From: Escherichia coli
Lineage (GTDB): Bacteria > Pseudomonadota > Gammaproteobacteria > Enterobacterales > Enterobacteriaceae
NCBI RefSeq assembly: GCF_013122565.1
Contig: NZ_CP053258.1
Reading direction: 5' to 3' (one strand)
DNA length: 64,000 nucleotides
In this document: positions 2,611 to 58,935 of the stretch, piece by piece
Position numbering within the stretch: the first letter of the stretch is position 1
How the letters are laid out: every line of letters starts with the position of its first letter
Notes under the pieces: model-generated
Told to the model about the DNA's origin: nothing
What the model saw: only the letters and a program-made list of their open reading frames with translations
Databases searched by the model: none
Translations under genes and position numbers: made by a program

Positions 2611-2625
2611 ATATAAGGGAAAACG

Positions 2626-3174: not shown

Positions 3175-3200
3175 ATTCAAAAAATACAGAGGAATAAGAC

Positions 3201-4322: not shown

Positions 4323-4324
4323 GC

Positions 4325-5290: not shown

Positions 5291-5292
5291 TG

Positions 5293-6992: not shown

Positions 6993-6994
6993 TT

Positions 6995-25610: not shown

Positions 25611-25616
25611 GTATAT

Positions 25617-26630
25617 ATGTTTAACGGTAAAAAGATTTTAATCACTGGTGGTACTGGGTCATTTGGTAATGCAGTGTTACGTCGGTTTCTTGAGACAGAT
25701 ATTCAAGAGGTTATTATTTTCAGTAGAGATGAAAAAAAACAAGATGAGATGAGAACGCTATATCGCAATGATAAAATGAAATTTATTATAGGTGATATTA
25801 GAGATTATACATCTGTTTTAGCTGCAACTAGTGACGTTGACTATATATTCCATGCTGCGGCTTTAAAACAGGTGCCTTCATGTGAATTTTATCCATGGGA
25901 AGCAGTTAAAACGAATATAATTGGTACAGAAAATTTATTAAATGCTGCAAAACAAAATAAAGTTAAAAAAACAATTTGTTTGAGCACTGATAAAGCTGTG
26001 TATCCAATTAACGCAATGGGAATTTCGAAGGCTATGATGGAAAAAGTGATGACAGCAAAGGCTAGGACGTTCAACAATGAAGATTCAGTTGTTTGCGGAA
26101 CTCGTTATGGCAATGTTATGGCATCACGCGGCTCTGTTATCCCTCTGTTCATTCAGCAGATTCAAACAAATCAACCATTAACTATAACAGACCCTGAAAT
26201 GACTAGATTCATGATGACGTTAGATGATGCTGTAGATCTCGTATTATTTGCATTTAATAACGGGCAAAACGGTGACATTTTTGTTCAGAAAGCGCCTGCC
26301 GCGACAATTGCTGTGCTTGCTAAAGCATTAGTTGAATTGATGGGGGTGCCAAACCATCCTATTAAAGTAGTTGGTTCACGTCATGGGGAAAAGATATATG
26401 AAACCTTACTTAGCCGTGAAGAAATGGCAAAAGCGATTGATCATGGAGATTATTATCAGATTCAACCAGATAATCGTGATCTGAATTATGACAAATATTT
26501 AAGCGAAGGGAGTAAAAAAATTGAGCTGTTTGATGATTACAATTCCCATAATACATATAGACTCAATGTTGATGAAATGAAAAAATTATTGTTAAAACTC
26601 AATATCATTCAAAATGTGTTAAATAGTTAA
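25617..26630 (+). CDS. UDP-N-acetylglucosamine 4,6-dehydratase/5-epimerase (FnlA/WbvB/CapE family)
   Basis: 337 aa starting MFNGKKILITGGTGSFGNAVLRRFLETDI with …YIFHAAALKQVPSCEF… and …CLSTDKAVYPINAMGISKAMMEKV…, closely resembling recalled FnlA/Cap5E sequences. Confidence 0.85.
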   Translation: MFNGKKILITGGTGSFGNAVLRRFLETDIQEVIIFSRDEKKQDEMRTLYRNDKMKFIIGDIRDYTSVLAATSDVDYIFHAAALKQVPSCEFYPWEAVKTNIIGTENLLNAAKQNKVKKTICLSTDKAVYPINAMGISKAMMEKVMTAKARTFNNEDSVVCGTRYGNVMASRGSVIPLFIQQIQTNQPLTITDPEMTRFMMTLDDAVDLVLFAFNNGQNGDIFVQKAPAATIAVLAKALVELMGVPNHPIKVVGSRHGEKIYETLLSREEMAKAIDHGDYYQIQPDNRDLNYDKYLSEGSKKIELFDDYNSHNTYRLNVDEMKKLLLKLNIIQNVLNS

Positions 26631-26642
26631 GGATAATTTATA

Positions 26643-27512
26643 ATGCAAAAAATATTGATCTTAGGTGTGAGTGGTATGCTTGGGCATACCCTCTTTCGTT
26701 TTTTATCATCTCAGCAGGATCTTTTAGTAACTGGTACAGTACGCCATATTACGCAAGAAATAAAATTAGTATCATCTAAGAATATAGTCCTGATGAGAGA
26801 TGTCTTTAACAAAGAAAAATTAGAAAACATTATAAATTCGAATGATGTTATTATAAATTGCATTGGCGCAATTAAGCAGAAATATGATAATAAAAATACA
26901 GATTATATTCTGTTAAATTCGTACTTTCCACATCTTCTTAATGAAATTTGTATAGAATCTAATAAAAGGCTAATTCATTTCTCAACAGATTGTATTTTTA
27001 ACGGTGAGAAAGGAAATTATGATGATGGTAGTTTATCAAATGTTATAGATATGTATGGTAAATCTAAATATTTAGGTGAGGTTTATGGTGATAAAACACT
27101 TACTTTAAGGACATCATTAATTGGGCATGAATTAAAATCATCGTATAGTTTGATTGATTGGTTTTTGAACTCAAACTCAACTGTCAATGGTTATACAAAA
27201 GCTATTTTCAGTGGATTGCCAACCATAGAAATTGCGCATTTTTTATATGAGCATGTTTTACAATCCCAGTTGCATGGTATTTATAATTTATCAGCAGCAC
27301 CAATTTCAAAATTCGATTTATTGACTTTAGTCAATGAAGTATACAAACTTAATAAAACCATCGTTCCTAAAAGTGACTTTGTGATTGATCGTTCTCTTGA
27401 CTCTCATAGGTTGCGTTCATTAACTAAGTATACACCTCCTGACTGGAATACTCTTGTTGTAAAGATGTATTTAGATTACTTAAGTTTAGGGGCATTGCTT
27501 AATGAAAGATAA
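26643..27512 (+). CDS. RmlD-like NAD(P)-dependent sugar-nucleotide 4-reductase (WbvR/QnlB-like)
   Basis: 289 aa starting MQKILILGVSGMLGHTLFRFL (Rossmann GxxGxxG) with YGKSK catalytic dyad; length and family fit dTDP-4-dehydrorhamnose reductase-like enzymes that follow FnlA-type dehydratases in L-QuiNAc/L-RhaNAc pathways. Confidence 0.7.
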   Translation: MQKILILGVSGMLGHTLFRFLSSQQDLLVTGTVRHITQEIKLVSSKNIVLMRDVFNKEKLENIINSNDVIINCIGAIKQKYDNKNTDYILLNSYFPHLLNEICIESNKRLIHFSTDCIFNGEKGNYDDGSLSNVIDMYGKSKYLGEVYGDKTLTLRTSLIGHELKSSYSLIDWFLNSNSTVNGYTKAIFSGLPTIEIAHFLYEHVLQSQLHGIYNLSAAPISKFDLLTLVNEVYKLNKTIVPKSDFVIDRSLDSHRLRSLTKYTPPDWNTLVVKMYLDYLSLGALLNER

Positions 27513-27969
27513 CTTATCTTTTTCTAAACTGATTTCTGAAGCTGAGATTAACTCCAGAAATCGTTCTCATCTTAATTTGCATGAATCTTTTTCTGATCCT
27601 ATACAGAAAACTTTGATTTGCTGTTGTTCGAACACGTATATTCCTCCTCACTATCATAAATTTGCCCATCAAAGTGAATTGTTTATTAGATTAAAAGGAT
27701 GTTTTAGTCTATTAATTTTTTCTGTTGATGGAGTGCTTACCCGTCGTATAACTATAGATGAGGAAAATCCTCTTTATGAGATAAAACCAGGTGTTATTCA
27801 TACGGTGGTAGCTTTAGACAGACATAACATTTTACTTGAAATTAAGAGGGGACCGTATGTCGAATCTGAAGCGAAAAATTTTCCTGATTGGGTAACATTA
27901 GAAAATAGCGATAATCAACTTGATTTAGAGCGATTGCGAACATTGAAGGTCGGTGATAAGTTATCATAA
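27502..27969 (+). CDS. WbuC-like cupin-fold protein of unknown function
   Basis: 155 aa; start overlaps the reductase stop; His-rich motif (…YIPPHYHKFAHQSE…) consistent with a cupin metal site; recalled co-occurrence of WbuC-family cupins with fnl-type genes in O-antigen clusters. Confidence 0.5.
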   Translation: MKDNLSFSKLISEAEINSRNRSHLNLHESFSDPIQKTLICCCSNTYIPPHYHKFAHQSELFIRLKGCFSLLIFSVDGVLTRRITIDEENPLYEIKPGVIHTVVALDRHNILLEIKRGPYVESEAKNFPDWVTLENSDNQLDLERLRTLKVGDKLS

Positions 27970-28003
27970 CAAGGCTATTATAAATTTATTTTAGGTGATA
28001 TCT

Positions 28004-28801
28004 ATGCTTCCATTAATATCTATTATTACACCGACATATAATAGAGCATATACTCTAGATCGGTTATATAATTCTTTAGTAACACAAGACTCTGAAAAAT
28101 TCGAATGGATAATAATCGACGATGGTAGTGCAGATGAAACACGGAAGAAATGTTTAGGTTATATAAATGATTCCATTTTTAAAATACAATATTACAAACA
28201 AGATAATAGTGGTAAACCCGCAGCTATCAATTTAGGAGTAACCAAAGCTGTTGGCGATTATATTTTTATTGTAGATAGTGATGATGCTTTAACATTAAAT
28301 GCAATTGGTACTATTTATGACTGTATTGTAAAATACACAGTCGCATCTGACTTTGAATTTTCCGGCTTAGGATTTAGAAAATCTTTTTTTGATGGGAAAA
28401 TGCTCGGCAAACATATTGAGCGGAATACGAATTCACCTATGCTGTTACATAGCACAGATTGTAATAATTTATTTAAAGTCGATTTAGCATATTGTTTTAA
28501 ACGAGAATTGATGATTAAATATCCTTTCCCAAAGTTTAAAGATGAAAAATTTGTTCCAGAACTGTTTATATGGAATAAAATTACAGATGTTGCCAAAGTA
28601 ATATTTTTTCCTAATGTTGTTGTATATTATTGTGAGTATCTGGCTGATGGACTTACAAATAATTTTAAAAAACAACTTCGACATAATCCAATTGGCTTTG
28701 CAGTATACTATAAAGATCAGTTCCATAGAGAACATTCTATATGGGGGAAAATAAAAATGGCAATAAGATATATCCAATGTATTATATATAAATTCATATA
28801 G
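28004..28801 (+). CDS. Glycosyltransferase, GT2 family (O-antigen)
   Basis: Track ORF from a GTG at 27995; ATG at 28004 preceded by aggtga; GT2 signature ISIITPTYNRAYTLDRLYNSL and DxD (IIDDGSADE, VDSDD). Confidence 0.75.
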   Translation: MLPLISIITPTYNRAYTLDRLYNSLVTQDSEKFEWIIIDDGSADETRKKCLGYINDSIFKIQYYKQDNSGKPAAINLGVTKAVGDYIFIVDSDDALTLNAIGTIYDCIVKYTVASDFEFSGLGFRKSFFDGKMLGKHIERNTNSPMLLHSTDCNNLFKVDLAYCFKRELMIKYPFPKFKDEKFVPELFIWNKITDVAKVIFFPNVVVYYCEYLADGLTNNFKKQLRHNPIGFAVYYKDQFHREHSIWGKIKMAIRYIQCIIYKFI

Positions 28802-28848
28802 TCATGCAGGGTTCATCCATTCATTTAATTAGTTGCTATGATTTTTAT

Positions 28849-29922
28849 ATGAAAATATTACATGTTGTACCACAGTTAAAGCATGGTGGTGTCGAAACTG
28901 CTGTTTTTAATTCTATTGAAAGGATAAGAAAGAGTGGATATGATTTTAATGTTTTGACTATTGAAAGAGGAAACTGCTTTAACAATTCATATGTAAAAGT
29001 AGAACACTGCTTAAATTCTTCTGTATACAATCCAGTTTGTTTTTATAAATTTATTAGATTTATTCATAAAGAAAAACCTGATTTGATAGTTTATTCTTTA
29101 TGGAAATCTGCATTGTTAGGAATTGCATTGTGTCTTTTAAAACCTTTTCTCAAAAGTAAGCCTAAAACCGCGTTAATTATACATAATACTAGGTTTGCAC
29201 ATTTTGTTGATTACATAATAACAAAACTTTCACTTAAAATAACCGACTCTATATATTTTGATTCGGAAAAATCAAAAGCTTACTTTCTGAATAGAGATTA
29301 TGCAACAGGCGAGGTTATTAGTTTTATCGATAAAAAGATGGTGGCAAAAAAATTTAATAATATCAATGGTGAGATTAAGTTTGTATTTATTGGTAGGTTG
29401 CACTCTCAAAAAGGGGTTGATAGGGCATTAAAATATATACATCTTTTTAAAAAGCAACATGAAGAAATACGATTTGATATATATGGTCCAGACGAAGGAG
29501 AATTGAATAATATTATAAATAAGATAAATAAATTAGGATTGCAGGATAAAGTTGTCTATAAAGGTGTTGTCGATAATAACAAAGTTAATGATATATTAAC
29601 CCAATATGACTTTTATCTTCAATTCAGCCATTTTGAAGGAATGGCAATGTCTGTTGTTGATGCGATGCAGGTTGGGGTTATTCCAATCGTTAATAATGTT
29701 GGTGAGATACCAAATTACGTAAAAAACAATATTAACGGCATTATCTTAGATGATAAAAAGCTTGGTGATGAAAACTATCTTAATTTAAATGTATCATGCT
29801 TATTAAATATCATAAAGAATGATGGTGGGTATTTTTTATATAATAACGCGATAAAGACATTTCAGGATAATAATACTTATGTAGATGACTATATAAAGAA
29901 AATAATAAATGCTAACAACTGA
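28849..29922 (+). CDS. Glycosyltransferase, GT4 family (O-antigen)
   Basis: Track ORF 28804..29922; start chosen at MKILHVVPQLKHGGVETAV; C-terminal …FSHFEGMAMSVVDAMQVGVIPIV… is GT4-like; last gene before gnd. Confidence 0.75.
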   Translation: MKILHVVPQLKHGGVETAVFNSIERIRKSGYDFNVLTIERGNCFNNSYVKVEHCLNSSVYNPVCFYKFIRFIHKEKPDLIVYSLWKSALLGIALCLLKPFLKSKPKTALIIHNTRFAHFVDYIITKLSLKITDSIYFDSEKSKAYFLNRDYATGEVISFIDKKMVAKKFNNINGEIKFVFIGRLHSQKGVDRALKYIHLFKKQHEEIRFDIYGPDEGELNNIINKINKLGLQDKVVYKGVVDNNKVNDILTQYDFYLQFSHFEGMAMSVVDAMQVGVIPIVNNVGEIPNYVKNNINGIILDDKKLGDENYLNLNVSCLLNIIKNDGGYFLYNNAIKTFQDNNTYVDDYIKKIINANN

Positions 29923-30041
29923 TATCATGTGTTAAAATTGATTATTTAAAATGGTTTATATAGCTCCTACTAAATAATTTGGCTTTTTCGTAATGGCTGT
30001 GTAGCCGCAATCTCGCAGTAACCCCCTGACAGGAGTAAACA

Positions 30042-40299: not shown

Positions 40300-41199
40300 T
40301 CACTCCATCATCTTCTCAATCGGCAGGACCAGGATTGAACTGGCACCCAGCGCTTTCAGTTTTTCCATCGTTTCCCAGAACAGGGTTTCGCTACTGACCA
40401 TGTGCATCGCTACGCGCTGTTGGTCACCCGCCAGCGGCAGAATAGTTGGGCGTTCGGCACCTGGCAGCAGGGCGATGACTTCATCCAGACGTTCGGTCGG
40501 TGCGTGCATCATGATGTATTTTGATTCGCGCGCCTGGATCACACCCTGAATACGGGTCAGCAGTTTGTCGATCAGTTGCTGTTTGGATTCTTCCATTTCA
40601 CCATCGCGCTGGATCAGGCAGGCTTTCGAGCGGTAGATAACTTCGACTTCGCGCAGGCCGTTTGCTTCCAGCGTGGCACCGGTGGAAACCAGATCGCAAA
40701 TCGCATCCGCCAGTCCGGCACGCGGGGCGACTTCAACAGAACCGTTCAGTAAGCAGGATTTAAAAGAGATGCCTTTCTGGTCGAGATAACGCTTGAGCAG
40801 GTGAGGATAAGAGGTGGCGATACGTTTACCATTTAAGGAGAGCGGGCCGTCCCAGGCTTCATCAACCGGCGTTGCCAGCGAAAGACGGCAGCCGCCGAAA
40901 TCCAGACGACGCAGGGTAAAGTAGCGTGGATCTTCACCCTGGGCGCGGCGGTTAAGCAGCTCTTCTTCCAGCACGTTTTCGCCGATAATCCCAAGATCTA
41001 CCACGCCGTCCATTACCAGACCGGGAATGTCGTCGTCACGCACGCGCAGAATATCAATCGGCATGTTTTCTGCCATCGCGATCAGGCGCTGGGTGTGAAG
41101 ATTGATTTTAATGCCACAGCGCGCCAGCAATTCGCGTGAGTCATCACTTAAACGGCCGGATTTCTGCATAGCTATGCGTAAACGAGTGTTGTCTGTCAT
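40300..41199 (-). CDS. hisG: ATP phosphoribosyltransferase
   Basis: Track ORF to 41238; internal start gives 299 aa starting [21 protein letters not shown]; first structural gene of the his operon. Confidence 0.95.
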
Positions 41200-41245: not shown

Positions 41246-41282
41246 ATAAAAAAGCCCCCGGAAGGTGATCTTCCGGGGGCTT
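41246..41282 (-). terminator. his operon attenuator (leader terminator hairpin with U-tract)
   Basis: Minus-strand reading: agcccccggaagatcaccttccgggggcttttttatt, a GC-rich perfect stem followed by a T-run, between hisL and hisG. Confidence 0.85.
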
Positions 41283-41344
41283 TCTCATGCGTTCATGCAC
41301 CACTGGAAGATCTGAATGTCTTCCAGCACACATCGCCTGAAAGA

Positions 41345-41395
41345 CTAGTCAGGATGATGGTGATGATGGTGGTGTTTAAATTGAACGCGTGTCAT
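41345..41395 (-). CDS. hisL: his operon leader peptide (16 aa, seven consecutive His codons)
   Basis: Minus-strand translation ATG ACA CGC GTT CAA TTT AAA CAC CAC CAT CAT CAC CAT CAT CCT GAC TAG = MTRVQFKHHHHHHHPD*, not in the ORF track because it is too short. Confidence 0.9.
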   Translation of the reverse strand: MTRVQFKHHHHHHHPD

Positions 41396-41599
41396 AAAAG
41401 TCTCTGTGAATGTTTATTCAACTGATGTCTTTTAACCTAAACCACTTTCACGTTAGAAAGCAAGGGCTTTTTTATATATTTTATGGCGATGGATTTGTTT
41501 AATGAATGAGCGGGGAAAGGAGGGTGCCTGGAGTGACTACGTTAGAAAAGAAATCGTGAAAATATGTCTTTAAAACCCTCAAGAACATTGTGTTCTGTA

Positions 41600-41730
41600 A
41601 CTCAAGTGGGCTTTGTTCCTGCCGGATGCGGAGTGAATGCCTTATCTGGTCTACAAATGTTGCGTAAATTCAATATATTGATGTTTTTTGTAGGACTGAT
41701 AAGCGGAGCGCATCAGGCAATGGTATATTT
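41600..41730. repeat. REP-like palindromic elements between the his leader region and yeeZ
   Basis: gccggatgcggagtgaatgccttatctggtctac and gtaggactgataagcggagcgcatcaggca resemble REP units; the only ORF here (41564..41761) is translation across these palindromes. Confidence 0.45.
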
Positions 41731-41822
41731 GCTAACCGTTTCGATTTCATTCATAGAATGAATTGTCAGTTTTGATACGCTAGCGTAGCCTTATAGATCT
41801 AAGGTGTATCAGGAGATAACGG

Positions 41823-42647
41823 ATGAAAAAGGTCGCAATTGTCGGGTTAGGGTGGTTAGGCATGCCGCTGGCGATGTCACTTTCAGCGCGAGGCTGGCAA
41901 GTCACCGGGAGTAAAACCACACAAGATGGTGTCGAAGCGGCCCGAATGAGTGGCATTGATAGCTATCTGCTTCGCATGGAGCCTGAGTTAGTTTGCGATT
42001 CTGACGATCTGGATGCCCTGATGGATGCCGATGCGCTGGTCATTACGCTTCCGGCACGTCGTAGCGGCCCCGGCGATGAGTTCTATTTACAAGCGGTACA
42101 AGAGTTAGTGGATAGCGCGCTGGCTCATCGTATTCCCCGCATTATTTTCACCAGCTCAACATCTGTCTATGGCGATGCGCAAGGCACGGTGAAAGAAACC
42201 ACCCCGCGTAATCCGGTAACCAACAGTGGACGAGTATTAGAAGAACTCGAAGACTGGCTGCACAATTTACCCGGTACTTCGGTCGATATTCTGCGTCTTG
42301 CGGGGCTGGTCGGACCGGGACGTCATCCCGGACGCTTCTTTGCCGGAAAAACTGCGCCTGATGGTGAATATGGTGTTAATTTAGTCCATTTAGAAGATGT
42401 TATTGGCGCTATCACCCTGTTGTTACAGGCACCTAAAGGCGGACACATCTATAATATATGTGCGCCAGCTCACCCTGCGCGTAATGTTTTCTATCCGCAG
42501 ATGGCCCGTTTACTGGGGCTGGAACCTCCGCAGTTCCGAAATAGTCTGGACAGCGGAAAAGGTAAGATTATTGATGGCAGTCGGATTTGTAATGAACTGG
42601 GATTTGAATACCAGTATCCCGATCCGCTGGTAATGCCGCTGGAGTAA
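41823..42647 (+). CDS. yeeZ: NAD(P)-binding epimerase/dehydratase-family protein YeeZ
   Basis: 274 aa starting MKKVAIVGLGWLGMPLA (Rossmann fold); synteny with yeeY-plaP-sbcB. Confidence 0.85.
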   Translation: MKKVAIVGLGWLGMPLAMSLSARGWQVTGSKTTQDGVEAARMSGIDSYLLRMEPELVCDSDDLDALMDADALVITLPARRSGPGDEFYLQAVQELVDSALAHRIPRIIFTSSTSVYGDAQGTVKETTPRNPVTNSGRVLEELEDWLHNLPGTSVDILRLAGLVGPGRHPGRFFAGKTAPDGEYGVNLVHLEDVIGAITLLLQAPKGGHIYNICAPAHPARNVFYPQMARLLGLEPPQFRNSLDSGKGKIIDGSRICNELGFEYQYPDPLVMPLE

Positions 42648-48913: not shown

Positions 48914-49972
48914 GTGCGTGCCGATAAGTCATTATGCCCGTTTGAAATCCGGGTATACCGCCATTACCGCATTGTGCATGGTACTCGGGTCGCGCTGGCA
49001 TTCCTGCTCACTTTTCTCATTATCCGCCTGTTTACTATCCCGGAAAGCACCTGGCCGCTGGTCACCATGGTGGTGATTATGGGGCCAATCTCGTTCTGGG
49101 GTAACGTTGTCCCTCGCGCCTTCGAACGTATTGGCGGTACGGTGTTGGGTTCGATATTAGGTCTTATCGCTCTGCAACTGGAGTTAATCTCGTTACCGCT
49201 GATGTTAGTCTGGTGCGCGGCGGCTATGTTTCTTTGCGGTTGGCTGGCGCTGGGCAAGAAACCGTATCAAGGATTATTGATTGGGGTGACGCTGGCAATT
49301 GTTGTGGGTTCCCCGACAGGTGAAATTGATACGGCGTTATGGCGAAGCGGTGATGTGATCCTCGGCTCTTTACTGGCAATGTTGTTTACCGGTATCTGGC
49401 CACAACGGGCGTTCATCCACTGGCGCATTCAACTGGCGAAAAGTCTGACCGAGTATAATCGGGTCTATCAATCAGCATTCTCACCGAACTTACTCGAACG
49501 CCCACGTCTTGAAAGCCATCTACAAAAACTCCTGACCGATGCCGTGAAAATGCGTGGGCTGATTGCGCCCGCCAGCAAAGAAACTCGTATTCCAAAATCG
49601 ATATATGAAGGTATCCAGACCATTAACCGCAATCTGGTTTGTATGCTGGAGTTGCAAATCAATGCATACTGGGCCACGCGCCCCAGCCATTTCGTGTTAT
49701 TGAACGCGCAAAAACTTCGTGATACCCAGCACATGATGCAGCAAATACTGCTGAGCCTTGTTCATGCGTTGTACGAAGGTAATCCGCAGCCGGTTTTTGC
49801 CAATACGGAAAAATTGAACGATGCTGTGGAAGAGCTGCGTCAGTTGCTCAATAACCACCATGACCTTAAGGTTGTGGAAACACCAATCTATGGTTATGTG
49901 TGGCTGAACATGGAAACGGCACATCAGCTTGAGTTGCTATCGAATCTGATTTGCCGGGCCTTGCGCAAATAA
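48914..49972 (+). CDS. yeeA: Inner membrane protein YeeA (FUSC-like)
   Basis: 352 aa starting MRADKSL…FEIRVYRHYRIVHGTRVALAFLLTF; hydrophobic N-terminal half; synteny. Confidence 0.85.
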   Translation: MRADKSLCPFEIRVYRHYRIVHGTRVALAFLLTFLIIRLFTIPESTWPLVTMVVIMGPISFWGNVVPRAFERIGGTVLGSILGLIALQLELISLPLMLVWCAAAMFLCGWLALGKKPYQGLLIGVTLAIVVGSPTGEIDTALWRSGDVILGSLLAMLFTGIWPQRAFIHWRIQLAKSLTEYNRVYQSAFSPNLLERPRLESHLQKLLTDAVKMRGLIAPASKETRIPKSIYEGIQTINRNLVCMLELQINAYWATRPSHFVLLNAQKLRDTQHMMQQILLSLVHALYEGNPQPVFANTEKLNDAVEELRQLLNNHHDLKVVETPIYGYVWLNMETAHQLELLSNLICRALRK

Positions 49973-50143
49973 TTCCTGAACTTCAGAATCATCTTGCTGC
50001 TGCTTCGATTCAGCAAGGATAAAGGGTATGATAGTGAAAAGGGATAAAAGCATTGTCATCTGCGGCAGCTATGAGTAATGTTGGCCCTAACGAATAGCGG
50101 TTGCTTAAACGAATCCGACTCTCACATTATCAGGGGTATAAAA

Positions 50144-50473
50144 ATGGAAACTACCAAGCCTTCATTCCAGGACGTACTGGAATTTGTTCGTCTGTTCCGT
50201 CGTAAGAACAAACTGCAACGTGAAATTCAGGACGTTGAGAAAAAGATCCGTGACAACCAGAAGCGCGTCCTGCTGCTGGACAACCTGAGCGATTACATCA
50301 AGCCGGGGATGAGCGTTGAAGCAATCCAGGGCATCATCGCCAGCATGAAAGGTGACTATGAAGATCGCGTTGACGATTACATCATCAAAAATGCCGAGCT
50401 CTCCAAAGAACGCCGCGATATCTCCAAAAAGCTGAAAGCTATGGGCGAAATGAAAAACGGCGAAGCGAAGTAA
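50144..50473 (+). CDS. yeeX: UPF0265-family protein YeeX
   Basis: Track ORF 50078..50473; internal start [41 protein letters not shown] gives 109 aa. Confidence 0.85.
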
Positions 50474-50488
50474 TTCCTGTTTTATTCA

Positions 50489-50513
50489 ATGAGGGTTGCC
50501 CGGCAACCCTCAT
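50489..50513. terminator. Palindromic hairpin between convergent yeeX and pduV (putative shared terminator)
   Basis: atgagggttgcc-c-ggcaaccctcat, a 12-bp perfect inverted repeat, with T-rich sequence on the plus side and ttgaataaaac on the minus side. Confidence 0.5.
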
Positions 50514-50573
50514 TGCTCATTGATTCTTTTCTGTGTATCACAGTCATCATTCCCATCTGATAACCTATCGAAA

Positions 50574-51017
50574 TTAGCGACAGACATCTTCTGTATGCAG
50601 CAAGGAAAAAAGTTCTGTAACTCCATTGTTATTAACCGCACTGGTTACTAACACGTTCTGCGCTCCAGCTTCCCGTAACCAACATTTCACCAAAGATATT
50701 TGTTCCATGCTGGCTAAATCTGCTTTGGTTACTACTCCAATGACCGGGCGATTCATTGACGAGGTAAAGCCTGGCGAAAAAGGTGACCACGGTGCGTCCG
50801 CATTAAGCACCAGCGCGATAATGTCTGCTTCGCAGGCACTGACCAACAGTGCACTGTAGAGGCTGCGGTTTTCGAGGTATTCGCCTGGTGTATCAATGGT
50901 GGTCGGGGACCAGACGATTGCCTGCGTTTTCTGATAATGAATATTTTCGCCACGCAGACATTGCGTGAGTGACGTTTTTCCGCACTGGCTGGGGCCGATG
51001 AGCATCATACGTTGCAT
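50574..51017 (-). CDS. pduV: PduV, EutP/PduV-family small GTPase associated with the microcompartment
   Basis: 147 aa; P-loop [15 protein letters not shown]; last gene of the pdu operon in this window. Confidence 0.85.
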
Positions 51018-51021
51018 AATG

Positions 51022-51372
51022 TCAGGTCCGCGTAATGGGGCAGGCGGTAAAGCGCATCATTTCACCCAGCGTACGGGTAACCTGGCTAAGTGCATATTCA
51101 ATTGCAGAAACATCACCAGTCAGCACTACGGCACCGGTAAAACGATCAAGAAAACCGATCTCTACAGCGCCTGATTTTGTGGCGATATCGCATGCGATGA
51201 TAGATGCTTCGCTGGGGGTAATCGTCAGAATGCCAATAGCAGAAACGGTGTCTGGTAAACCCAATTTCTTAAACAGATCCTTCCCTGGATTGGCGATGAC
51301 ATGTGCCAGCGTGACCTGCTTACCAGGGACATATTCCTGAATCATCCGTTCAGTTGTGTGCTGAGTTGTCAT
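51022..51372 (-). CDS. pduU: PduU, microcompartment shell protein (circularly permuted BMC domain)
   Basis: 116 aa from the internal ATG overlapping the pduT stop (TAATG); …[32 protein letters not shown]… matches recalled PduU/EutS-type sequence. Confidence 0.85.
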
Positions 51373-51926
51373 TATCCCTCCACCATCTGACGCCACATGG
51401 CTTCATGTGGGCGGGCAATCACCGACCGATAGACCAACAAACCTTTTTCCCCCGCACGCTCGCTGGCGACAGAGACCGCGTTATTAACATCTGAAATATC
51501 GCCAGCAACCACCATGTAGCATTTACCGCCAATGCCAAAAGCCATATGCACGCGAACGAGAATGACATTCGCAGCTTTGACTGCACAATCGGCAGCGTCA
51601 ATGCAGGCGGCGACACTCCAGGTTTCGACTACGCCGACAGCCCGGTGCTGTTCAGCATGGTTAAGTCCGCTGATTGCAGAAAGGATGCTGGGATGAATAT
51701 TCGGCAGGACAAGACTGTCGACCAGCATTTCGCCAGCAAGGGAAGCGCCGCTGTTGATGGCCTGTTGCACCGCGCCCACATCGCCACCGAGCATCAGTAG
51801 AAATTTTCCGGGGCATAGCGTTTTGCTGACCAGTAACTCAACGTTGGCGCTTTTCAGCATGGCATCGCCGGTTTCCATCCCTTTCGCGATACTGCTAAGT
51901 TCTAAAATACCTACCGCTTTCGACAT
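51372..51926 (-). CDS. pduT: PduT, tandem-BMC-domain shell protein (Fe-S binding)
   Basis: 184 aa starting [32 protein letters not shown]; two BMC repeats. Confidence 0.9.
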
Positions 51927-51928
51927 GG

Positions 51929-53272
51929 TTAACCTCTCACAAGCGTAATCGCGTTTTCTGTCACATCGCTGACCATGCCATCAATGCTGGCATGAATGGG
52001 GGCACCTAATGTGCCGTGTGGAATTTGACCTACACATTGTCCATGAACGACGCGATCGCCTTTTTGTACACACGCAATTGCGCTGGCACCGATGTGTTGG
52101 CGTAACAATAACGTCACTTTTTCGGGCTGAGGCACCTGTTCAGACAATGGCGCATCCTGATACCACGGGGTTAAGCCCAGTCTGGTTACCAGCCGTTTTA
52201 CGGGAATCAGTCGATAATTTGCCATTGGATCTGCAGGATTTAAGGCACCTTCGTAGCGGAGATTTTGTGCGCGTAATTCCTGCTTAAGCAGGCGGTTTAT
52301 GCGCATTGGTGAAATTCCTACCGGACAGGCGATGCTGGCGCAGACGTTGCACTCCGAACAGGTGAGCGCCGTCAGTAACAGTTGTGGCGTAGCGAGCTGT
52401 TGGTAGTTAACCGCACGTACTAATAAATGGGGTGCCAGTTCGTGACCGATTAAATGACGAGGGCAGAGATCGGTACACAAGCGGCATTGCTCACAAACAG
52501 TTTTCGCGACGGCAAGTACGCTGCGGTCATTCTGCATTCGACGTTGGATCAGTGAATGAGAGTTGGGTAAAACCAGCAAGCCGCCAGTGGTTTTGCTGAC
52601 TGGTGTGTCGAGCGATGTGATCAAACTTCCCATCGTCGGCCCGCCATTGATAAAACCAGGAGCATCTACTGTTGCGCCGCCCGCCAGCGCCAGGACTTCA
52701 CGTAAAGACATGCCGATGGGGACGGTTACCGTTATTGGTTTCGCCACTGCACCATTAACGGTGAGTGTGCGGCGCGTCACTGGATACTGTTGCTCGACGG
52801 CTCTGGCAATATTAAGTACGGTTTGAACATTATTGACCACCACACCGACGCTAACGGGTAATGCAGCGGGTGGAACGCGGCGACCAGTTGCCATCCAGAT
52901 GGTCAGCACTTCGTCTCCTGCGGGGTAAACGTCGGGCAAAATATGCAGGCGGATATCCGGTGGTAACAGTGGTGTGAGTGCGTTTATTGCCAGTTGATAT
53001 TTCTCTTTCAGCGCGATGATTCCGCTACTGGCCCCGGTGGCTTTCATCGCATAGTGAACACCGCGAAGCAGGCGGCTGGCTTGCTGCGCCATTAACTGTT
53101 GATCCACTTTCAACATGGGTTCGCATTCCGCCGCATTCACCAGGAAAGTGTCAACACGCGCTTGTAGCTTAATATGGGTTGGAAAACCTGCGCCGCCAGC
53201 ACCCACGACACCTGCTGCCTGTACTCGCTCGCGGATAGTCTGGTCGTCGCAGGAGGTTAATCCGACGTTCAT
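51929..53272 (-). CDS. pduS: PduS, cobalamin reductase (RnfC/NuoF-like flavoprotein with 4Fe-4S clusters)
   Basis: 447 aa; two ferredoxin-like cysteine clusters ([25 protein letters not shown]). Confidence 0.9.
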
Positions 53273-54381
53273 AACAATTCCTCGAGCAGTTCTGCAATCG
53301 CGGAGGCATCAGCCGCATGCGGGTTGGTACGCAACGTTGCATCCGCCAGCGCCGCCTGAACCATATCTGGTATGCGTATTGACCATTCTGCTTTTTTTTC
53401 TTTCAGCGCATTGGCAAGAGTCGGCAGCGTACAGGTTGTTTTAAGCTGTTCAATATGTTGAATAAGTGCATTCAGGCTGGCGGTGTCATTGGCGTTGTCC
53501 GGGCATAAATGGCACGTTTTCGCCAGCCGGGCGTAGCGTTTGGCTGCGCGCGGATCGCCAGCATTAAAGCGGATAACCGCCGTGAGCAGGAGCGCATTCG
53601 CCAGGCCGTGCGGCAGATGAAACTGTCCGCCGAGTTGATGAGCAATTGCATGGTTTAAACCGAGTCCGGCCTGGCTAAAGGCCACTCCTGCAAGCGTCGA
53701 AGCATTATGCATTTTGCCACGGGTGGCAAGACAATCGCCTTTCTTCACTGCAGTGGGCAGGTATTGAAAAACAATTTGCACGGCTTTTTCGACCAGTGCA
53801 TCCGTGAAGTCGCTGGCGCGGGGAGAAACATAAGCTTCAAGCGCATGGGTTAAAACATCCATCCCGGTATTGGCCGTTATCGCCGGTGGCACGCTGACGA
53901 CCAGAGATGGATCAAGGATCGCGATATCCGGATAAAGTGCATTATCGAAAAGGGGATATTTAATCCCTTTCTCAGGATCGCTGATGACACAAGCACTGGT
54001 CACTTCGGAACCGGTACCGCTGGTGGTAGGAATGGCTACGCAGGTTTCAATTTCAATGCCACACTGGCGACCGAACCAGACAATCGCTTTTGCGGCGTCC
54101 AGGGCAGAACCGCCGCCAAAACCGATAACCACATCCGGGCGTAAAGTCTGCATTTGCGCAATGCCTTTCACCACGATCTGGATAGTTGGGTCAGGCGTTA
54201 TTTCGCTAAAAATACTGAGACGATTACTGTCGGGCAGCGCCTGATGCAACGTGTCAATGAGTGGTGAGCGTGCCAGAAAGGCGTCGCAAATAATCCAGAT
54301 GTGTTTATGAGAGAAACGGCTAAGTACCTTGAGACTTCCCGGTCCGCTGTATAAACGCGTCTGCAGTGAAAAAGTATTCAT
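53269..54381 (-). CDS. pduQ: PduQ, 1-propanol dehydrogenase (iron-containing alcohol dehydrogenase family)
   Basis: 370 aa; Fe-ADH motifs (…GGGSALDAAKAI…, metal-binding His residues). Confidence 0.9.
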   Translation of the reverse strand: MNTFSLQTRLYSGPGSLKVLSRFSHKHIWIICDAFLARSPLIDTLHQALPDSNRLSIFSEITPDPTIQIVVKGIAQMQTLRPDVVIGFGGGSALDAAKAIVWFGRQCGIEIETCVAIPTTSGTGSEVTSACVISDPEKGIKYPLFDNALYPDIAILDPSLVVSVPPAITANTGMDVLTHALEAYVSPRASDFTDALVEKAVQIVFQYLPTAVKKGDCLATRGKMHNASTLAGVAFSQAGLGLNHAIAHQLGGQFHLPHGLANALLLTAVIRFNAGDPRAAKRYARLAKTCHLCPDNANDTASLNALIQHIEQLKTTCTLPTLANALKEKKAEWSIRIPDMVQAALADATLRTNPHAADASAIAELLEELL

Positions 54382-54391
54382 TTCCGTTTCT

Positions 54392-55777
54392 CTAGCGAAT
54401 TGAAAAGCCGCTGGTTAACACGCAGCGTCGTGAGCGGGCAAAAGTCCGTGCTGACGTTGTCCCTTCTCCGGTCGGTGTTGCAATGGTAAAGGTCGTAAAG
54501 CCTTCGCCGCCGACGCCAATACCCGCCCAGGAGGGGCCGTTTTTGACAAAGATTGAGGTTTGCATAACGCGCGCAGCAAGGTTGAGCCGTGAGACGTTCT
54601 GCGAGTGCATAATTGCCGTGTGGTGCAAGCCGTCTTCCACTTTCAACGCCAGAGTGAGAGCGCTGTCAAAATCGTTGACCTTCACAATGGGCAGCATTGG
54701 CATCAGTTGTTCACAAGTAACCCAACTATCATCGGCGTCAACAACAGCAATCAGTAGGCGCGGCGCTTTTGCGGGCAAAGGGAGGCCCGCTGCTCCCAGC
54801 AAGGCTGATGGGCTTTTCCCAACCAGTTTTTTGTTGGTGCTACCGTCTGGCAGGCAAATTGCACGCAATTTCTCCGTTTGTTCACGGTTAAGAAGAAGTG
54901 CGCCAAAGCTTTGCATCTGCTGAATTAAATAATCTGCCACTGATGCCACGACAATCAGGCTTTTTTCAGCGATACACGGCAGGTTGTAATCAAAAGAAGC
55001 GCCGTTGATGATGTCCTCGGCGGCTTTCACAATATCAGCCGTTTCATCGACGATACACGGAGGGTTACCCGCTCCGGCACCAATCACTTTCTTGCCACTT
55101 TTCATTCCCATGGTGACGATCCCCGGACCGCCGGTAATCGCCAGAACGCTGATTTTAGGGTGCGCCATCATCTGTTCGGTGGCAGCAAAGGTCGGTTCAG
55201 ATACGGTAACGATCAGGTTATGAATGCCACTACAGCGAAACGCGATGTCTTCGATTGTGGTAATCAGTTTTAACGAAACGTATTTGGCTCCCGGGTGTGG
55301 ACTGAAGTAGACGCTATTACCTGCTGCCAGCATGCTGATGCTGTTGTTAATGATGGTTTCCGTGGGGTTGGTGCTTGGCGTGACCGAGCCAATAACCCCA
55401 AACGGAGAGTACTCAAACAAAACCATGCCACCATCACCGGTTAGTGCTGTGGTGGTTAAATCTTCAATTCCTGGCGTGTTATCAAGTGCCGCTTTGTTTT
55501 TTAGGTACTTATCTTCTTTATTTCCCATCCCCGTTTCTTTGGCGCTTTCTTCTGCCAGTTCGGTAAGGCGGGGCATTAATTCTTCGCGAATGGCGCTGAT
55601 AATGGCGCTACGGGTTTTAAGCGGGCACTGTTGAAAGCGTAAAAAGGCCTGGTGTGCTGCGCAGACCGCTTCATCGACAGTCTGGAAAATAGCGTTTCTT
55701 TGCGTTCGTGGTGTAGCGGGGACAAGTTGCTCACGCAGAATAATGCGGATCAGTGTTTCTAATTCAGAGTTATTCAT
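54392..55777 (-). CDS. pduP: PduP, CoA-acylating propionaldehyde dehydrogenase
   Basis: 461 aa starting MNNSELETLIRIIL…; aldehyde dehydrogenase catalytic Cys region (…NLPCIAEKSLIV…); close match to recalled Salmonella PduP. Confidence 0.92.
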   Translation of the reverse strand: MNNSELETLIRIILREQLVPATPRTQRNAIFQTVDEAVCAAHQAFLRFQQCPLKTRSAIISAIREELMPRLTELAEESAKETGMGNKEDKYLKNKAALDNTPGIEDLTTTALTGDGGMVLFEYSPFGVIGSVTPSTNPTETIINNSISMLAAGNSVYFSPHPGAKYVSLKLITTIEDIAFRCSGIHNLIVTVSEPTFAATEQMMAHPKISVLAITGGPGIVTMGMKSGKKVIGAGAGNPPCIVDETADIVKAAEDIINGASFDYNLPCIAEKSLIVVASVADYLIQQMQSFGALLLNREQTEKLRAICLPDGSTNKKLVGKSPSALLGAAGLPLPAKAPRLLIAVVDADDSWVTCEQLMPMLPIVKVNDFDSALTLALKVEDGLHHTAIMHSQNVSRLNLAARVMQTSIFVKNGPSWAGIGVGGEGFTTFTIATPTGEGTTSARTFARSRRCVLTSGFSIR

Positions 55778-56781
55778 TGGTTTACTCCCACGTTAATTGC
55801 CGCCATTGCGCTTTGGGCAATATCCATGTCTTGTTCAACGCTACCGCCGCTGATGCCAAGCCCGCCAAGCAATTTTCCGTCACGCCAGAGGGGGAAGCCG
55901 CCACCAAAAGTGACGACTTTTCCTTGCATATGGCTTTCGAGCCCGTAAAGCGGCGCGCCGGGTTGCACGGTATCAGCAAGCTTGTGGGTTGCCGTTTTCA
56001 TCGCCACGGCGGTCCAGGCTTTTTTCGGTGCCAGTTCACTGCTGACCAACAGGGCATCAGGCATCCGCCAGGTAACACTTTCTGTTCCGTTGGCATCAAC
56101 AATGCTGATGACAACGGGAATATGCAGTTCATCTGCGCGCATTGCCGCACTACGAATGAGTTGGTGAAGATCCTGAAAAGTGAGCGGCATTGTGCGTTCC
56201 TTCATTGCTGGTGTGTGGTTGGCTTCGTGATAACGTTTTGTGATTTCCTGAATTATCAGATTTTGATGAGCAACGTTGTCTTCCACGCGGGCGAGGGCAT
56301 ACAGGCAATCGGAAAGTCGGTTGATATAGTGCAGCAAAACATTCCGGACGGTGGTTTCCGTTGTCAGTTCAACCAGCCGTCTTTCAGCCCGTCGAGCCAC
56401 CGTGCGGGCGAAATGCATGCGGCTTGCGGCTTCACATCGACCAGGCAGAATGAAGCTGTGAACTGGGGGGACGGCGTTCATTGCACTATCGATCGCGTTT
56501 TCCAGCACGGCAATTTCTTCCGTACCGACGTAACGCTGCTGCGCTGACGGCTGTTCGCTTTCACTGGCGAGTTCGGCGCTAAACCAAAATATCTGTTGTT
56601 GAATGGCTTCCAGTAAGATGCGATGGCTTTCAATGGAGGTGGCGCAATAACACAGACTAAGTGTCGCGTTCAGTTCATCCAGCGTGCCATAGGTTTCGAC
56701 ACGTAGATGAGTTTTGCTTACGCGCTGTCCGGTAAATAAAGACGTACTTCCTGAATCACCTGTTCGGGTATAAATTGCCAT
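55774..56781 (-). CDS. pduO: PduO, ATP:cob(I)alamin adenosyltransferase with C-terminal domain of unknown function
   Basis: 335 aa starting MAIYTRTGDSGSTSLFTGQRVSKTHLRVETYGTLDELNA (PduO-type ATR signature). Confidence 0.92.
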   Translation of the reverse strand: MAIYTRTGDSGSTSLFTGQRVSKTHLRVETYGTLDELNATLSLCYCATSIESHRILLEAIQQQIFWFSAELASESEQPSAQQRYVGTEEIAVLENAIDSAMNAVPPVHSFILPGRCEAASRMHFARTVARRAERRLVELTTETTVRNVLLHYINRLSDCLYALARVEDNVAHQNLIIQEITKRYHEANHTPAMKERTMPLTFQDLHQLIRSAAMRADELHIPVVISIVDANGTESVTWRMPDALLVSSELAPKKAWTAVAMKTATHKLADTVQPGAPLYGLESHMQGKVVTFGGGFPLWRDGKLLGGLGISGGSVEQDMDIAQSAMAAINVGVNQ

Positions 56782-56792
56782 CTTTCAGCTCC

Positions 56793-57068
56793 TTAGCGCG
56801 AAAGCGTATCGACAATGCCGACCACTGCCAGGTCGATGGCCTCGTTAGGGCCGGAAAACACATGTCTGGCGCTGGAACCACTGCTGAGGAGTACCAACTC
56901 ACCAACGCCTGCGCCGACTGAATCAACGGCAACTTCGTCGCCGGTTAAAGGCGTGAGAGGCAGTTCGCCGTCAGCACTGACCCGGCGAACCAGCAGTAGT
57001 TTTTTCCCGATCAGAGAAGGTGATTTTTGCGTGGATACTACCGCGCCAGTGACTCGAGCCAGATGCAT
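56793..57068 (-). CDS. pduN: PduN, microcompartment vertex protein (EutN/CcmL family)
   Basis: 91 aa starting [30 protein letters not shown]. Confidence 0.9.
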
Positions 57069-57071
57069 AGG

Positions 57072-57563
57072 TTACTCCTGCCTGATTAACTGAATATTTC
57101 GGGTAATTGCCGCTTCACGAGCCAGTGCGGTCACACAACATTTCCGCTGTAACACCAGTATTCCAGAGCTTAACTGCGCAATATCGGCATAACTTAAAAG
57201 TCGATCACGATGAAGGTAGATCGGTTGCCCTTGCTCGTCGCACCAGCTTAGCGGTAGACGGGCGAGAGTCTTCAATTCAATGGCGTTCAGGAAATGATGC
57301 TGCAACGACAATTGAATGTGCATTCCCCAGGCTAACGCTTCGTGTATCTGGATTGCTGCTCGATCTGACGTTTCGTTCTCCGCAAGTTGTCGCAGCAGCG
57401 GCAGATCGACATATCGGATTTGTAATGACGCATACTGATGAACGCTCTCTTGAACGCTGGCGTCTCGCAGTTGAAAAACAGTCAGCACGAGTGTTTTTCC
57501 CGCACGTTGTTTAAGGCGAAAAACCACTTCGTCAACAATACGTTGCATCAGCATGTTATTCAT
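57072..57563 (-). CDS. pduM: PduM, microcompartment structural protein
   Basis: 163 aa; position between pduL and pduN; recalled PduM length. Confidence 0.8.
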   Translation of the reverse strand: MNNMLMQRIVDEVVFRLKQRAGKTLVLTVFQLRDASVQESVHQYASLQIRYVDLPLLRQLAENETSDRAAIQIHEALAWGMHIQLSLQHHFLNAIELKTLARLPLSWCDEQGQPIYLHRDRLLSYADIAQLSSGILVLQRKCCVTALAREAAITRNIQLIRQE

Positions 57564-58192
57564 GGCACTGACACCAGTGTGGCAAAAACGTCAGGGCTAT
57601 CAGCGCCTGCGGCGTTGGCCTCATCGGTATCAATATGCATTTCAAGACGCATATCCGGAGAGACGCGAACAGCGACGTTTTCGAATATCAGTCGTCGCTC
57701 ATCACCTTCAATGGAAACCGCCACTTTATCGCCATGCGTAACGCCATAAATCAGGGCATCCAGCGGAGACATATGAATATGCCGTTGCGCGACAATAACG
57801 CCAGATGTGATCTCCAGTTCCGCAAATGGGCTTATCAAACGAATCCCCGGAGTGCCGCTGAGATCGCCTGACATGCGTAGCGGGGCGGTGATCCCTAACG
57901 TTCTGGCGTCCGTACGGGAAATTTCCACCTGGCTTGCATTGCGTAGCGGCCCCAACAAGCGAACGTTGTGCAATTTACCTTTTGGTCCCTCCAACGTAAC
58001 AACCTGTTCAGCCGCGAATTGGCCAGGCTGCATTAACGGCTTTTTCTCGCTAATCGGTTGTTCAGGAAAAAGACGCAAATAATCCGCTGTTGAAAGATGA
58101 ATATGACGACTGGAAACACCCAGAGGGATAGGGCGCTCGCGCATCTCATCCAGAATCTGACTCACTGTTTCCTGCAAGGTTTGTTTATCCAC
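57560..58192 (-). CDS. pduL: PduL, phosphate propanoyltransferase
   Basis: 210 aa; starts MDKQTLQETVSQILDEMRERP… with a region …LGVSSRHIHLSTADYL… (PduL/EutD-type fold). Confidence 0.9.
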   Translation of the reverse strand: MDKQTLQETVSQILDEMRERPIPLGVSSRHIHLSTADYLRLFPEQPISEKKPLMQPGQFAAEQVVTLEGPKGKLHNVRLLGPLRNASQVEISRTDARTLGITAPLRMSGDLSGTPGIRLISPFAELEITSGVIVAQRHIHMSPLDALIYGVTHGDKVAVSIEGDERRLIFENVAVRVSPDMRLEMHIDTDEANAAGADSPDVFATLVSVP

Positions 58193-58194
58193 TG

Positions 58195-58617: not shown

Positions 58618-58640
58618 GCTGTGCTCCTTAGCAAATGGGG

Positions 58641-58916: not shown

Positions 58917-58935
58917 ACAGCGTTTCTCCTGTGGA

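What the first reader, a model, noticed from the sequence alone, without database searches (positions are those of the whole stretch)
41396..41822. No yefM-yoeB toxin-antitoxin pair between hisL and yeeZ; REP remnants instead
In E. coli K-12 the yefM-yoeB module lies between the his leader region and yeeZ (recalled). Here that interval is about 430 bp with REP-like palindromes and no credible ORF, so the toxin-antitoxin pair is absent, consistent with it being a variable insertion.
Basis: partly seen in the sequence, partly recalled or inferred. Interest (0 to 1): 0.3.

Follow-up and report, generated by a model that had tools for sequence, protein, structure and literature searches.

The report
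Known toxin-antitoxin-free hisL–yeeZ spacer
This E. coli window carries the common, already published version of the his–yeeZ spacer that lacks the yefM-yoeB toxin-antitoxin genes and instead holds 209 bp of non-coding DNA, including an ordinary repetitive palindromic (REP/BIME) element.

Summary
hisL starts at 41395 (minus strand), yeeZ starts at 41823, and the 427-bp spacer has no yefM/yoeB coding potential, no credible ORF and two REP palindromes.

K-12 does have yeeZ–yoeB–yefM–hisL. The difference is a replacement, not an empty site: window 41534–41742 (209 bp) sits where K-12-type genomes have a 649-bp cassette (promoter, yefM, yoeB). The two fills share no homology.

The 209 bp comprises single-copy sequence plus one complete BIME: a y-type REP, a 35-nt linker with an IHF-like core, and a short z-type REP.

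Among 5,426 complete E. coli genomes, about 22% (including O157:H7 and BL21) carry this allele and about 78% carry the toxin-antitoxin (TA) allele. The two alleles are mutually exclusive.

All 75 species of other genera examined have a 155–188-bp spacer with neither fill. E. albertii and two other Escherichia species carry the BIME allele. The BIME allele is therefore probably ancestral in the genus and the TA cassette a later replacement.

Iguchi et al. 2011 already reported both the missing genes and the REPs at this spot in O157 Sakai. The finding is ordinary and already known.

The parts
40300..41199 (-). hisG (ATP phosphoribosyltransferase), first gene of the his operon; context only
   Evidence: ORF. 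Orthologous CDS annotated.
41246..41369 (-). His leader / attenuator RNA
   Evidence: Rfam RF00514, 131.6 bits, E = 1.6e-23.
41345..41395 (-). hisL leader peptide (MTRVQFKHHHHHHHPD)
   Evidence: Sequence read. Position mapped from the annotated hisL of L001-L003.
41396..41475 (-). his promoter region, conserved across Enterobacteriaceae. Plus-strand AACCTA at 41434-41439 is the -10 TAGGTT; AAGCAA at 41458-41463 is the -35 TTGCTT.
   Evidence: Near-invariant block in 17 taxa. The hexamer assignment is from my own knowledge of the his promoter; the consensus scan did not call it.
41476..41533 (.). Escherichia-specific spacer sequence shared by both alleles and absent from other genera
   Evidence: Alignments. 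The window has a local variant, GGGTGCCTGGAG, where O157 and K-12 have GGGGGCTAAGAG.
41534..41742 (.). Allele-specific fill (209 bp) that occupies the place of the 649-bp yefM-yoeB cassette of K-12-type genomes
   Evidence: Breakpoints. No homology to the TA cassette (p = 0.26 and 0.14).
41534..41618 (.). Single-copy non-REP part of the fill; origin unknown; no coding or RNA-family signal
   Evidence: Exactly one place per genome in 1,198 of 5,426 genomes, 91.8-98.8% identity. No Rfam or Pfam hit.
41620..41654 (-). y-type REP (GTAGACCAGATAAGGCATTCACTCCGCATCCGGCA), mildly decayed
   Evidence: GTAG-anchored scan. 30 of 35 bases match the window's own y REP at 12957-12991. Orthologs in other Escherichia are closer to consensus.
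41655..41689 (.). 35-nt BIME linker with an IHF-like core, ATCAATATATTG, on the minus strand at 41671-41682
   Evidence: Motif scan. The linker is conserved in a paralogous copy at yiiF-fdhE. IHF binding is inferred, not tested.
41690..41719 (+). Short z-type REP (GTAGGACTGATAAGCGGAGCGCATCAGGCA)
   Evidence: GTAG-anchored scan. The paralog at yiiF-fdhE has the same 30-nt form.
41743..41822 (+). Right flank shared by both alleles. Holds a candidate yeeZ promoter (TTGTCA 41763-41768, 17-nt spacer, TAGCCT 41786-41791) and a Shine-Dalgarno AGGAG at 41811-41815.
   Evidence: The blocks AATTGTCAG and GGCGTAGCCTTA are conserved across genera. Promoter assignment is inference; the scan did not call it.
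41823..42647 (+). yeeZ (SDR-family oxidoreductase / putative epimerase)
   Evidence: ORF. Annotated orthologs.

Best explanation
The interval is the toxin-antitoxin-free allele of the divergent his / yeeZ promoter spacer of Escherichia.

Both alleles keep the his promoter and leader on the left and the conserved yeeZ upstream region on the right. Between fixed breakpoints (...GGGGGCTAAGAG | and | GATTCATTCATAG...) this allele carries 209 bp of non-coding DNA: about 85 bp of single-copy sequence, one complete BIME (a y REP and a short z REP, head to head around a 35-nt linker with an IHF-like site), and a short tail. K-12-type genomes carry a 649-bp minimal yefM-yoeB cassette there instead (promoter/operator plus two ORFs, ending 3 nt after the yoeB stop).

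The BIME allele is most likely the older state in the genus. The TA cassette most likely arrived once by illegitimate replacement and then spread by homologous recombination through the conserved flanks, in a region (his / O-antigen) that is a known recombination hotspot.

Functionally this strain has no YoeB/YefM at this address, so yeeZ must be transcribed from its own promoter in the shared right flank. The BIME is expected to behave like other BIMEs (IHF and gyrase binding, hairpins); that part is inferred, not shown.
For: Shown here:
- No YefM/YoeB coding potential in 64 kb.
- K-12 order yeeZ-yoeB-yefM-hisL.
- Exact breakpoints, and unrelated fills.
- REP features, and a paralog with the same architecture at yiiF-fdhE.
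- Allele counts: the BIME allele in 1,193 genomes by full-length match and 1,198 by its unique 85 bp; full-length yefM-yoeB in 4,212 genomes, any yefM-yoeB-like DNA in 4,218. Never both; yefM-yoeB never on a plasmid.

Direction of change:
- All 75 species of other genera have a 155-188-bp spacer with neither fill.
- E. albertii, Escherichia sp. E1V33, sp. MOD1-EC7003 and E. coli E69 have the 424-426-bp BIME allele, with species-level divergence.
- The TA allele retains the Escherichia-specific 41476-41533 stretch, which is contiguous with the BIME fill in those species.
- The E. whittamii TA cassette is 97.4% identical to the K-12-type one (about 100% across yefM), against 84-96% in flanking genes, suggesting exchange between species.

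Literature:
- Iguchi 2011 (PMC3158064) reports that Sakai lacks yoeB/yefM between yeeZ and hisL and that REPs lie in yeeZ-hisL.
- PMC5120126 describes TA modules as horizontally transferred promoter-plus-ORF cassettes without terminators, integrated in intergenic regions.
Against: - Direction is inferred from one representative per species, not from a tree. E. fergusonii was not among the 80 loci returned, and E. whittamii carries the TA allele.
- Two independent insertions at the same two breakpoints cannot be strictly excluded.
- Higher identity of the cassette between species could reflect purifying selection and not transfer.
- IHF or gyrase binding and yeeZ promoter use were not tested. 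The simple promoter scan did not call the proposed hexamers.
- Absence of yefM/yoeB-family paralogs elsewhere in the source genome cannot be checked from a 64-kb window.
Confidence: 0.8

Rival explanations
1. The TA module is ancestral at this site in Escherichia. This allele arose by deletion of yefM-yoeB, with the REP/BIME and extra sequence filling the scar (the literal 'remnants' reading).
For: The TA allele is the majority state in E. coli at 78%. E. whittamii also has it.
Against: - No residual similarity between the 209-bp fill and the cassette, and no YefM/YoeB fragments by tblastn.
- E. albertii and two other Escherichia species carry the BIME allele with species-level divergence.
- All other genera lack the TA module.
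- The E. whittamii cassette is unusually similar to the E. coli one.
Confidence: 0.1
2. Neither allele derives from the other. A shorter ancestral Escherichia spacer (with 41476-41533 but no fill) received the BIME-containing segment in one lineage and the TA cassette in another, at the same hot spot.
For: The fills are unrelated and share identical breakpoints. REP-rich intergenic sites are known targets for insertions (PMC1525189, listed).
Against: - No genome with the postulated fill-less intermediate was seen. The short-spacer E. coli outlier examined (H40) has a Kluyvera georgiana-like imported segment, not an Escherichia spacer.
- This model needs two independent events at the same nucleotides on both sides.
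Confidence: 0.12
3. The interval encodes an unannotated small protein or sRNA (for example the 65-aa ORF at 41564-41761) that functionally substitutes for the TA module.
For: A 65-aa ATG ORF exists. The fill is retained across Escherichia species.
Against: - The ORF runs through both REPs, has no Pfam match and is not annotated in genomes sharing the allele.
- No Rfam family matches outside the His leader.
- Divergence of the fill between species and within E. coli (91.8-98.8%) is about neutral.
Confidence: 0.04

Closest known systems
yeeZ-hisL intergenic region of E. coli O157:H7 Sakai, as described by Iguchi et al. 2011 (PMC3158064)
   Same: Same architecture: no yoeB/yefM between yeeZ and hisL, and REP sequences in that spacer. 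The O157 locus L003 aligns end to end with the window and has a 425-bp spacer.
   Different: About 2% sequence divergence. The window has a junction variant (GGGTGCCTGGAG where O157 has GGGGGCTAAGAG) and a canonical seven-His hisL, whereas O157 hisL has Gln in place of the first His.
E. coli K-12 yefM-yoeB locus (b2017 / b4539)
   Same: Same flanking genes, his promoter/leader and yeeZ upstream region. The shared flanks are nearly identical.
   Different: K-12 has a 649-bp cassette with yefM and yoeB where the window has 209 bp of unrelated non-coding DNA with a BIME.
BIME-1 / IHF-site-bearing BIMEs of E. coli (Ton-Hoang et al. 2012, PMC3333891), for example the copy between yiiF and fdhE
   Same: Two inverted REPs with GTAG feet facing a long conserved linker that carries an IHF-like core. 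Single unit at the locus. Same architecture and about 85% identity to the yiiF-fdhE copy.
   Different: The z partner is the short 30-nt form, not the 37-nt form seen at 12915-13047 in this window. By the published definition (BIME-1 = z1 + y), that makes it BIME-1-like or atypical. It also lies between divergent promoters and not at the 3' end of a transcription unit.
ccdO157 toxin-antitoxin polymorphism in E. coli (Mine et al. 2009, cited in PMC7167474)
   Same: A chromosomal type II TA cassette present in some E. coli lineages and absent in others at one fixed intergenic address. The analogy is from my own knowledge; the reference was seen.
   Different: Different TA family and locus. I did not examine that locus here.

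Membership tests
YefM-YoeB type II toxin-antitoxin module | An antitoxin ORF of the Phd/YefM type (~83 aa) in the interval | tested here: not met
   tblastn of K-12-type YefM against the whole window: best E = 2.9, and that hit is not in the interval. No Pfam hit for any spacer ORF.
YefM-YoeB type II toxin-antitoxin module | A YoeB/Txe-type toxin ORF (~84 aa) overlapping or following the antitoxin | tested here: not met
   tblastn of YoeB: best E = 1.3, a 12-aa match inside yeeZ on the opposite strand.
REP (repetitive extragenic palindrome) of E. coli | A 30-40-nt imperfect palindrome with the conserved GTAG tetranucleotide at its foot (definition read in PMC3333891) | tested here: met
   35-nt copy at 41620-41654 (minus) and 30-nt copy at 41690-41719 (plus), both starting with GTAG. 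Both fold as imperfect hairpins of -4.7 to -11.9 kcal/mol depending on the strand.
REP (repetitive extragenic palindrome) of E. coli | High copy number, dispersed in intergenic regions | tested here: met
Other copies lie in this window at 12915-13047. The location here is extragenic.
BIME (bacterial interspersed mosaic element) | [quoted passage not shown] | tested here: met
   y REP (minus) and z REP (plus), head to head, with a 35-nt linker at 41655-41689. Same arrangement in the yiiF-fdhE paralog.
BIME-1 subtype | Composed of y and z1, a single unit, with a long well-conserved L linker that frequently carries an IHF site (PMC3333891) | tested here: inconclusive
   Met: single unit, long linker conserved with a paralog, IHF-like core ATCAATATATTG. 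Not clearly met: the z partner is the short 30-nt form, not the 37-nt form. Assigning z1 versus z2 rests on my recollection of the consensus sequences, because the paper's figure is not held.
BIME-1 subtype | IHF actually binds the linker | not testable with these tools
   Only a sequence match to the core of the IHF consensus is available.
His operon leader / attenuator (context) | Match to Rfam RF00514 above the gathering score, next to a His-run leader peptide | tested here: met
   131.6 bits against a gathering score of 49. hisL encodes seven consecutive His.

The most novel reading that the evidence does not exclude
The BIME itself was the target or substrate of the event that installed yefM-yoeB. 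That could be REP-hairpin- or RAYT (TnpA-REP)-mediated illegitimate recombination that swapped a BIME-bearing segment for a minimal TA cassette. The hisL-yeeZ spacer would then be a natural example of REP-directed capture of a toxin-antitoxin cassette, which afterwards spread across Escherichia species by homologous recombination through the flanks.
Probability: 0.12. Interest if true: 0.3.

Novelty: already known. Interest (0 to 1): 0.1.

Why it matters
It matters little on its own. It is a correct annotation call: this strain has no yefM-yoeB at the K-12 address, like O157:H7 and BL21. It also illustrates the established view that chromosomal type II TA modules are accessory cassettes dropped into conserved intergenic regions.

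The modest added value here is threefold:
- Exact breakpoints, showing a replacement and not an insertion into an empty site.
- The population split: 22% versus 78% of 5,426 complete genomes.
- Outgroup evidence that the BIME-bearing allele is probably the ancestral Escherichia state.

Anyone deleting or comparing yefM-yoeB should remember that yeeZ then sits behind a different upstream context.

Tried and rejected
1. A diverged internal duplication of the his promoter region (41425-41475 against 41564-41619), suggested by short direct repeats. Local alignment found only a 10-nt exact match, no better than shuffles at p ≈ 0.05. Rejected.
2. Residual homology between the 209-bp fill and the K-12 cassette. 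None found (p = 0.26 and 0.14).
3. A hidden RNA gene in the spacer. The only Rfam hit above noise is the His leader.
4. A hidden small protein. No Pfam match for five spacer ORFs.
5. Using K-12's curated record to name the REP/RIP element. The 49-kb stretch fetched lists no repeat features, so classification rests on the published definition and on paralogs.
6. Reading Ramisetty & Santhosh 2016 (FEMS Microbiol Lett). The paper is not held.
7. Identifying the source strain. No complete E. coli genome exceeds about 98.3% identity over 14-kb pieces. Other Escherichia species are at 92-95%. So it is E. coli in the broad sense, from a lineage not closely represented.
8. The short-spacer E. coli outlier H40 as a candidate 'empty' Escherichia allele. 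It is a Kluyvera georgiana-like import.
9. The promoter/terminator consensus scan gave nothing above shuffle expectation.

Full report
**What is there**

The window reads as the E. coli his / O-antigen neighbourhood. hisG lies at 40300-41199 and hisL at 41345-41395, both on the minus strand. The Rfam His leader is at 41246-41369 (131.6 bits). On the plus strand, yeeZ starts at 41823, followed by yeeY and plaP.

**Is the toxin-antitoxin pair absent?**

Yes. I translated YefM and YoeB from a K-12-type locus (L001) and searched all six frames of the 64-kb window. The best hits had E = 1.3-5.8, and none was a plausible fragment.

The longest ORF in the spacer is 65 aa (41564-41761). It runs straight through both palindromes and has no Pfam match. 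RefSeq annotates nothing between hisL and yeeZ in genomes with the same spacer.

The recalled reference fact is correct. NC_000913.3 lists yeeZ (b2016), yoeB (b4539), yefM (b2017) and hisL (b2018) in that order.

**Anatomy of the difference**

Aligning the window, two same-type genomes (FDAARGOS_497 and O157 ATCC 43894) and a K-12-type genome shows common flanks and an unrelated middle.
- The left flank is shared through ...GGGGGCTAAGAG (window 41533). The window itself carries a local variant, GGGTGCCTGGAG.
- The right flank is shared from GATTCATTCATAG (window 41743).
- Between these points the window has 209 bp. K-12-type genomes have 649 bp: the yefM promoter/operator, yefM and yoeB, ending 3 nt after the yoeB stop codon.
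- The two fills share no detectable similarity (p = 0.26 and 0.14 against shuffles).

This is therefore a replacement polymorphism, not an insertion into an otherwise identical empty site.

**The palindromes**

A GTAG-anchored scan finds two REPs:
- a 35-nt y-type REP at 41620-41654, minus orientation;
- a 30-nt short z-type REP at 41690-41719, plus orientation.

Their GTAG feet face a 35-nt linker (41655-41689) that contains ATCAATATATTG, the core of the IHF consensus.

The window supplies its own reference copies: a z1-y-z1 cluster at 12915-13047 in the wcaK-wzxC spacer. The y copy in the finding matches that reference y at 30 of 35 positions. Orthologous copies in other Escherichia species are closer to consensus. 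The element is complete but mildly decayed, so 'remnants' overstates its condition.

Full-length matches of 80-90% identity occur even in genomes that lack this allele.

One such paralog, between yiiF and fdhE, has the same y-linker-short-z architecture and a conserved linker.

By the published definitions (PMC3333891) this is a BIME. The single unit, the long conserved linker and the IHF-like site are BIME-1 features. The short z partner makes it BIME-1-like or atypical and not a textbook BIME-1.

**The rest of the fill**

The 85 bp at 41534-41618 is strictly single-copy. It occurs exactly once in 1,198 of 5,426 genomes at 91.8-98.8% identity, and never in the others. It gives no RNA-family or protein-family signal. 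A suspected internal duplication of the his promoter region did not hold up.

**Population frequency**

| Query | Genomes matched (of 5,426) |
|---|---|
| Window-type spacer, full length | 1,193 |
| Unique 85 bp of the window's fill | 1,198 |
| K-12-type spacer, full length | 4,212 |
| yefM-yoeB coding DNA at ~70% identity sensitivity, any match | 4,218 |
| yefM-yoeB coding DNA, full length | 4,212 |

The window-type allele is found in O157:H7, BL21 and SMS-3-5, among others. yefM-yoeB is never on a plasmid and almost always present once per genome.

The two alleles are mutually exclusive and account for all but a handful of genomes. Genomes with the BIME allele have no K-12-like yefM-yoeB anywhere.

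**Which state is older?**

A scan of species-representative genomes with YeeZ returned 80 loci.
- All 75 loci from other genera (Salmonella, Citrobacter, Enterobacter, Klebsiella, Kluyvera and others) have a 155-188-bp hisL-yeeZ spacer with no TA module.
- In those genera the his promoter block and the yeeZ upstream block are conserved, and neither fill is present.
- Escherichia spacers carry about 270 extra bp (41476-41745).
- E. albertii, Escherichia sp. E1V33, Escherichia sp. MOD1-EC7003 and E. coli E69 have the 424-426-bp BIME allele, with substitutions in line with species divergence.
- The TA allele keeps the Escherichia-specific stretch 41476-41533, which is contiguous with the BIME fill in those species.
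- E. whittamii has the TA allele, with YefM and YoeB 100% identical in amino acids to K-12. Its cassette is 97.4% identical in DNA (about 100% across yefM), against 84-96% in flanking genes. That hints at exchange between species.

Together this favours the BIME allele as ancestral in the genus and the TA cassette as a later one-step replacement that spread by homologous recombination. I put this direction at roughly 0.75. It rests on one genome per species and lacks E. fergusonii.

**How it works (inferred)**

Both alleles keep the his promoter and attenuator. Both also keep a right flank with genus-spanning conserved blocks: TTGTCA at 41763-41768, a 17-nt spacer, TAGCCT at 41786-41791, and AGGAG at 41811-41815. 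I read these blocks as the yeeZ promoter and ribosome-binding site.

In this strain yeeZ therefore cannot be read through from yefM-yoeB, as has been suggested for K-12 (PMC5120126). It must use its own promoter.

The BIME would be expected to bind IHF, and possibly gyrase, like other members of the family (PMC3333891). Nothing here tests that.

**Comparison with what is known**

The polymorphism is published. Iguchi et al. [quoted passage not shown] Reviews treat chromosomal type II TA modules of E. coli as accessory and unevenly distributed (PMC7167474). Another paper describes them as promoter-plus-ORF cassettes integrated in intergenic regions (PMC5120126).

**Verdict**

Novelty is 'already known' and interest is low.

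The one limit is that genome-wide absence of yefM/yoeB-family paralogs in the source strain cannot be checked from a 64-kb window.

Noticed in passing
L004 (NZ_CM149565.1, 'E. coli' MEI4BO-21) 1-6307: This RefSeq E. coli genome has a 178-bp hisL-yeeZ spacer, no yeeY, and a hisC-to-tsuA segment 95.3% identical to Kluyvera georgiana (L072) but only 72-86% identical to the window. About 7-8 genomes in the collection fall in this low-identity class. It is either an intergeneric import at the his / O-antigen hotspot or a mislabelled record.
   Followed up: partly
window 49900-64000: This part of the window is a pdu (propanediol utilisation) gene cluster. It is present at full length in only 637 of 5,426 complete E. 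coli genomes, best identity 98.3%. K-12 has the CP4-44 prophage next to yeeA instead.
   Followed up: no
window 18100-30000: The O-antigen gene cluster is annotated in its best matches as the O3 family (wzx/wzy). Only 16 genomes cover at least 80% of it, best identity 99.2%.
   Followed up: no
window 36000-64000: No complete E. coli genome is more than about 98.3% identical over 14-kb pieces, and other Escherichia species are at 92-95%. The source lineage is not closely represented in the collection. The window also shares the junction variant GGGTGCCTGGAG (about 41522-41533) with Escherichia sp. E1V33.
   Followed up: partly
window 12915-13047: A three-REP cluster (z1 at 12915-12951, y at 12957-12991 in the opposite orientation, z1 at 13011-13047) lies in the wcaK-wzxC spacer. 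Iguchi 2011 also reports variable REP numbers in this spacer.
   Followed up: partly
window 41763-41815, and the aligned columns of L005-L084: The blocks AATTGTCAG and GGCGTAGCCTTA upstream of yeeZ are conserved across more than 15 genera, while the surrounding spacer is not. They fit a -35 TTGTCA / 17 nt / -10 TAGCCT promoter, or a regulator site (possibly for the LysR-type regulator YeeY).
   Followed up: no
L003 (O157 ATCC 43894) hisL, aligned to window about 41372: O157 hisL has one substitution that turns the first of the seven His codons into Gln, and it has its own protein accession (WP_010904803.1). The window has the canonical seven-His leader.
   Followed up: no
L001 1868-1900 (left junction of the K-12-type TA cassette): The left junction of the TA cassette forms a near-perfect 9-bp inverted repeat, CTAAGAGGA-CTG-TCCTCTAAG. 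It spans the shared flank and the first bases of the cassette. It could be chance or a trace of the insertion event.
   Followed up: no
L005 (CP089930.1, E. coli E69) 1-7822: The his-yeeZ region of E. coli E69 is only 94.1% identical to the window, no closer than other Escherichia species. That points to an imported or highly divergent his-region haplotype.
   Followed up: no
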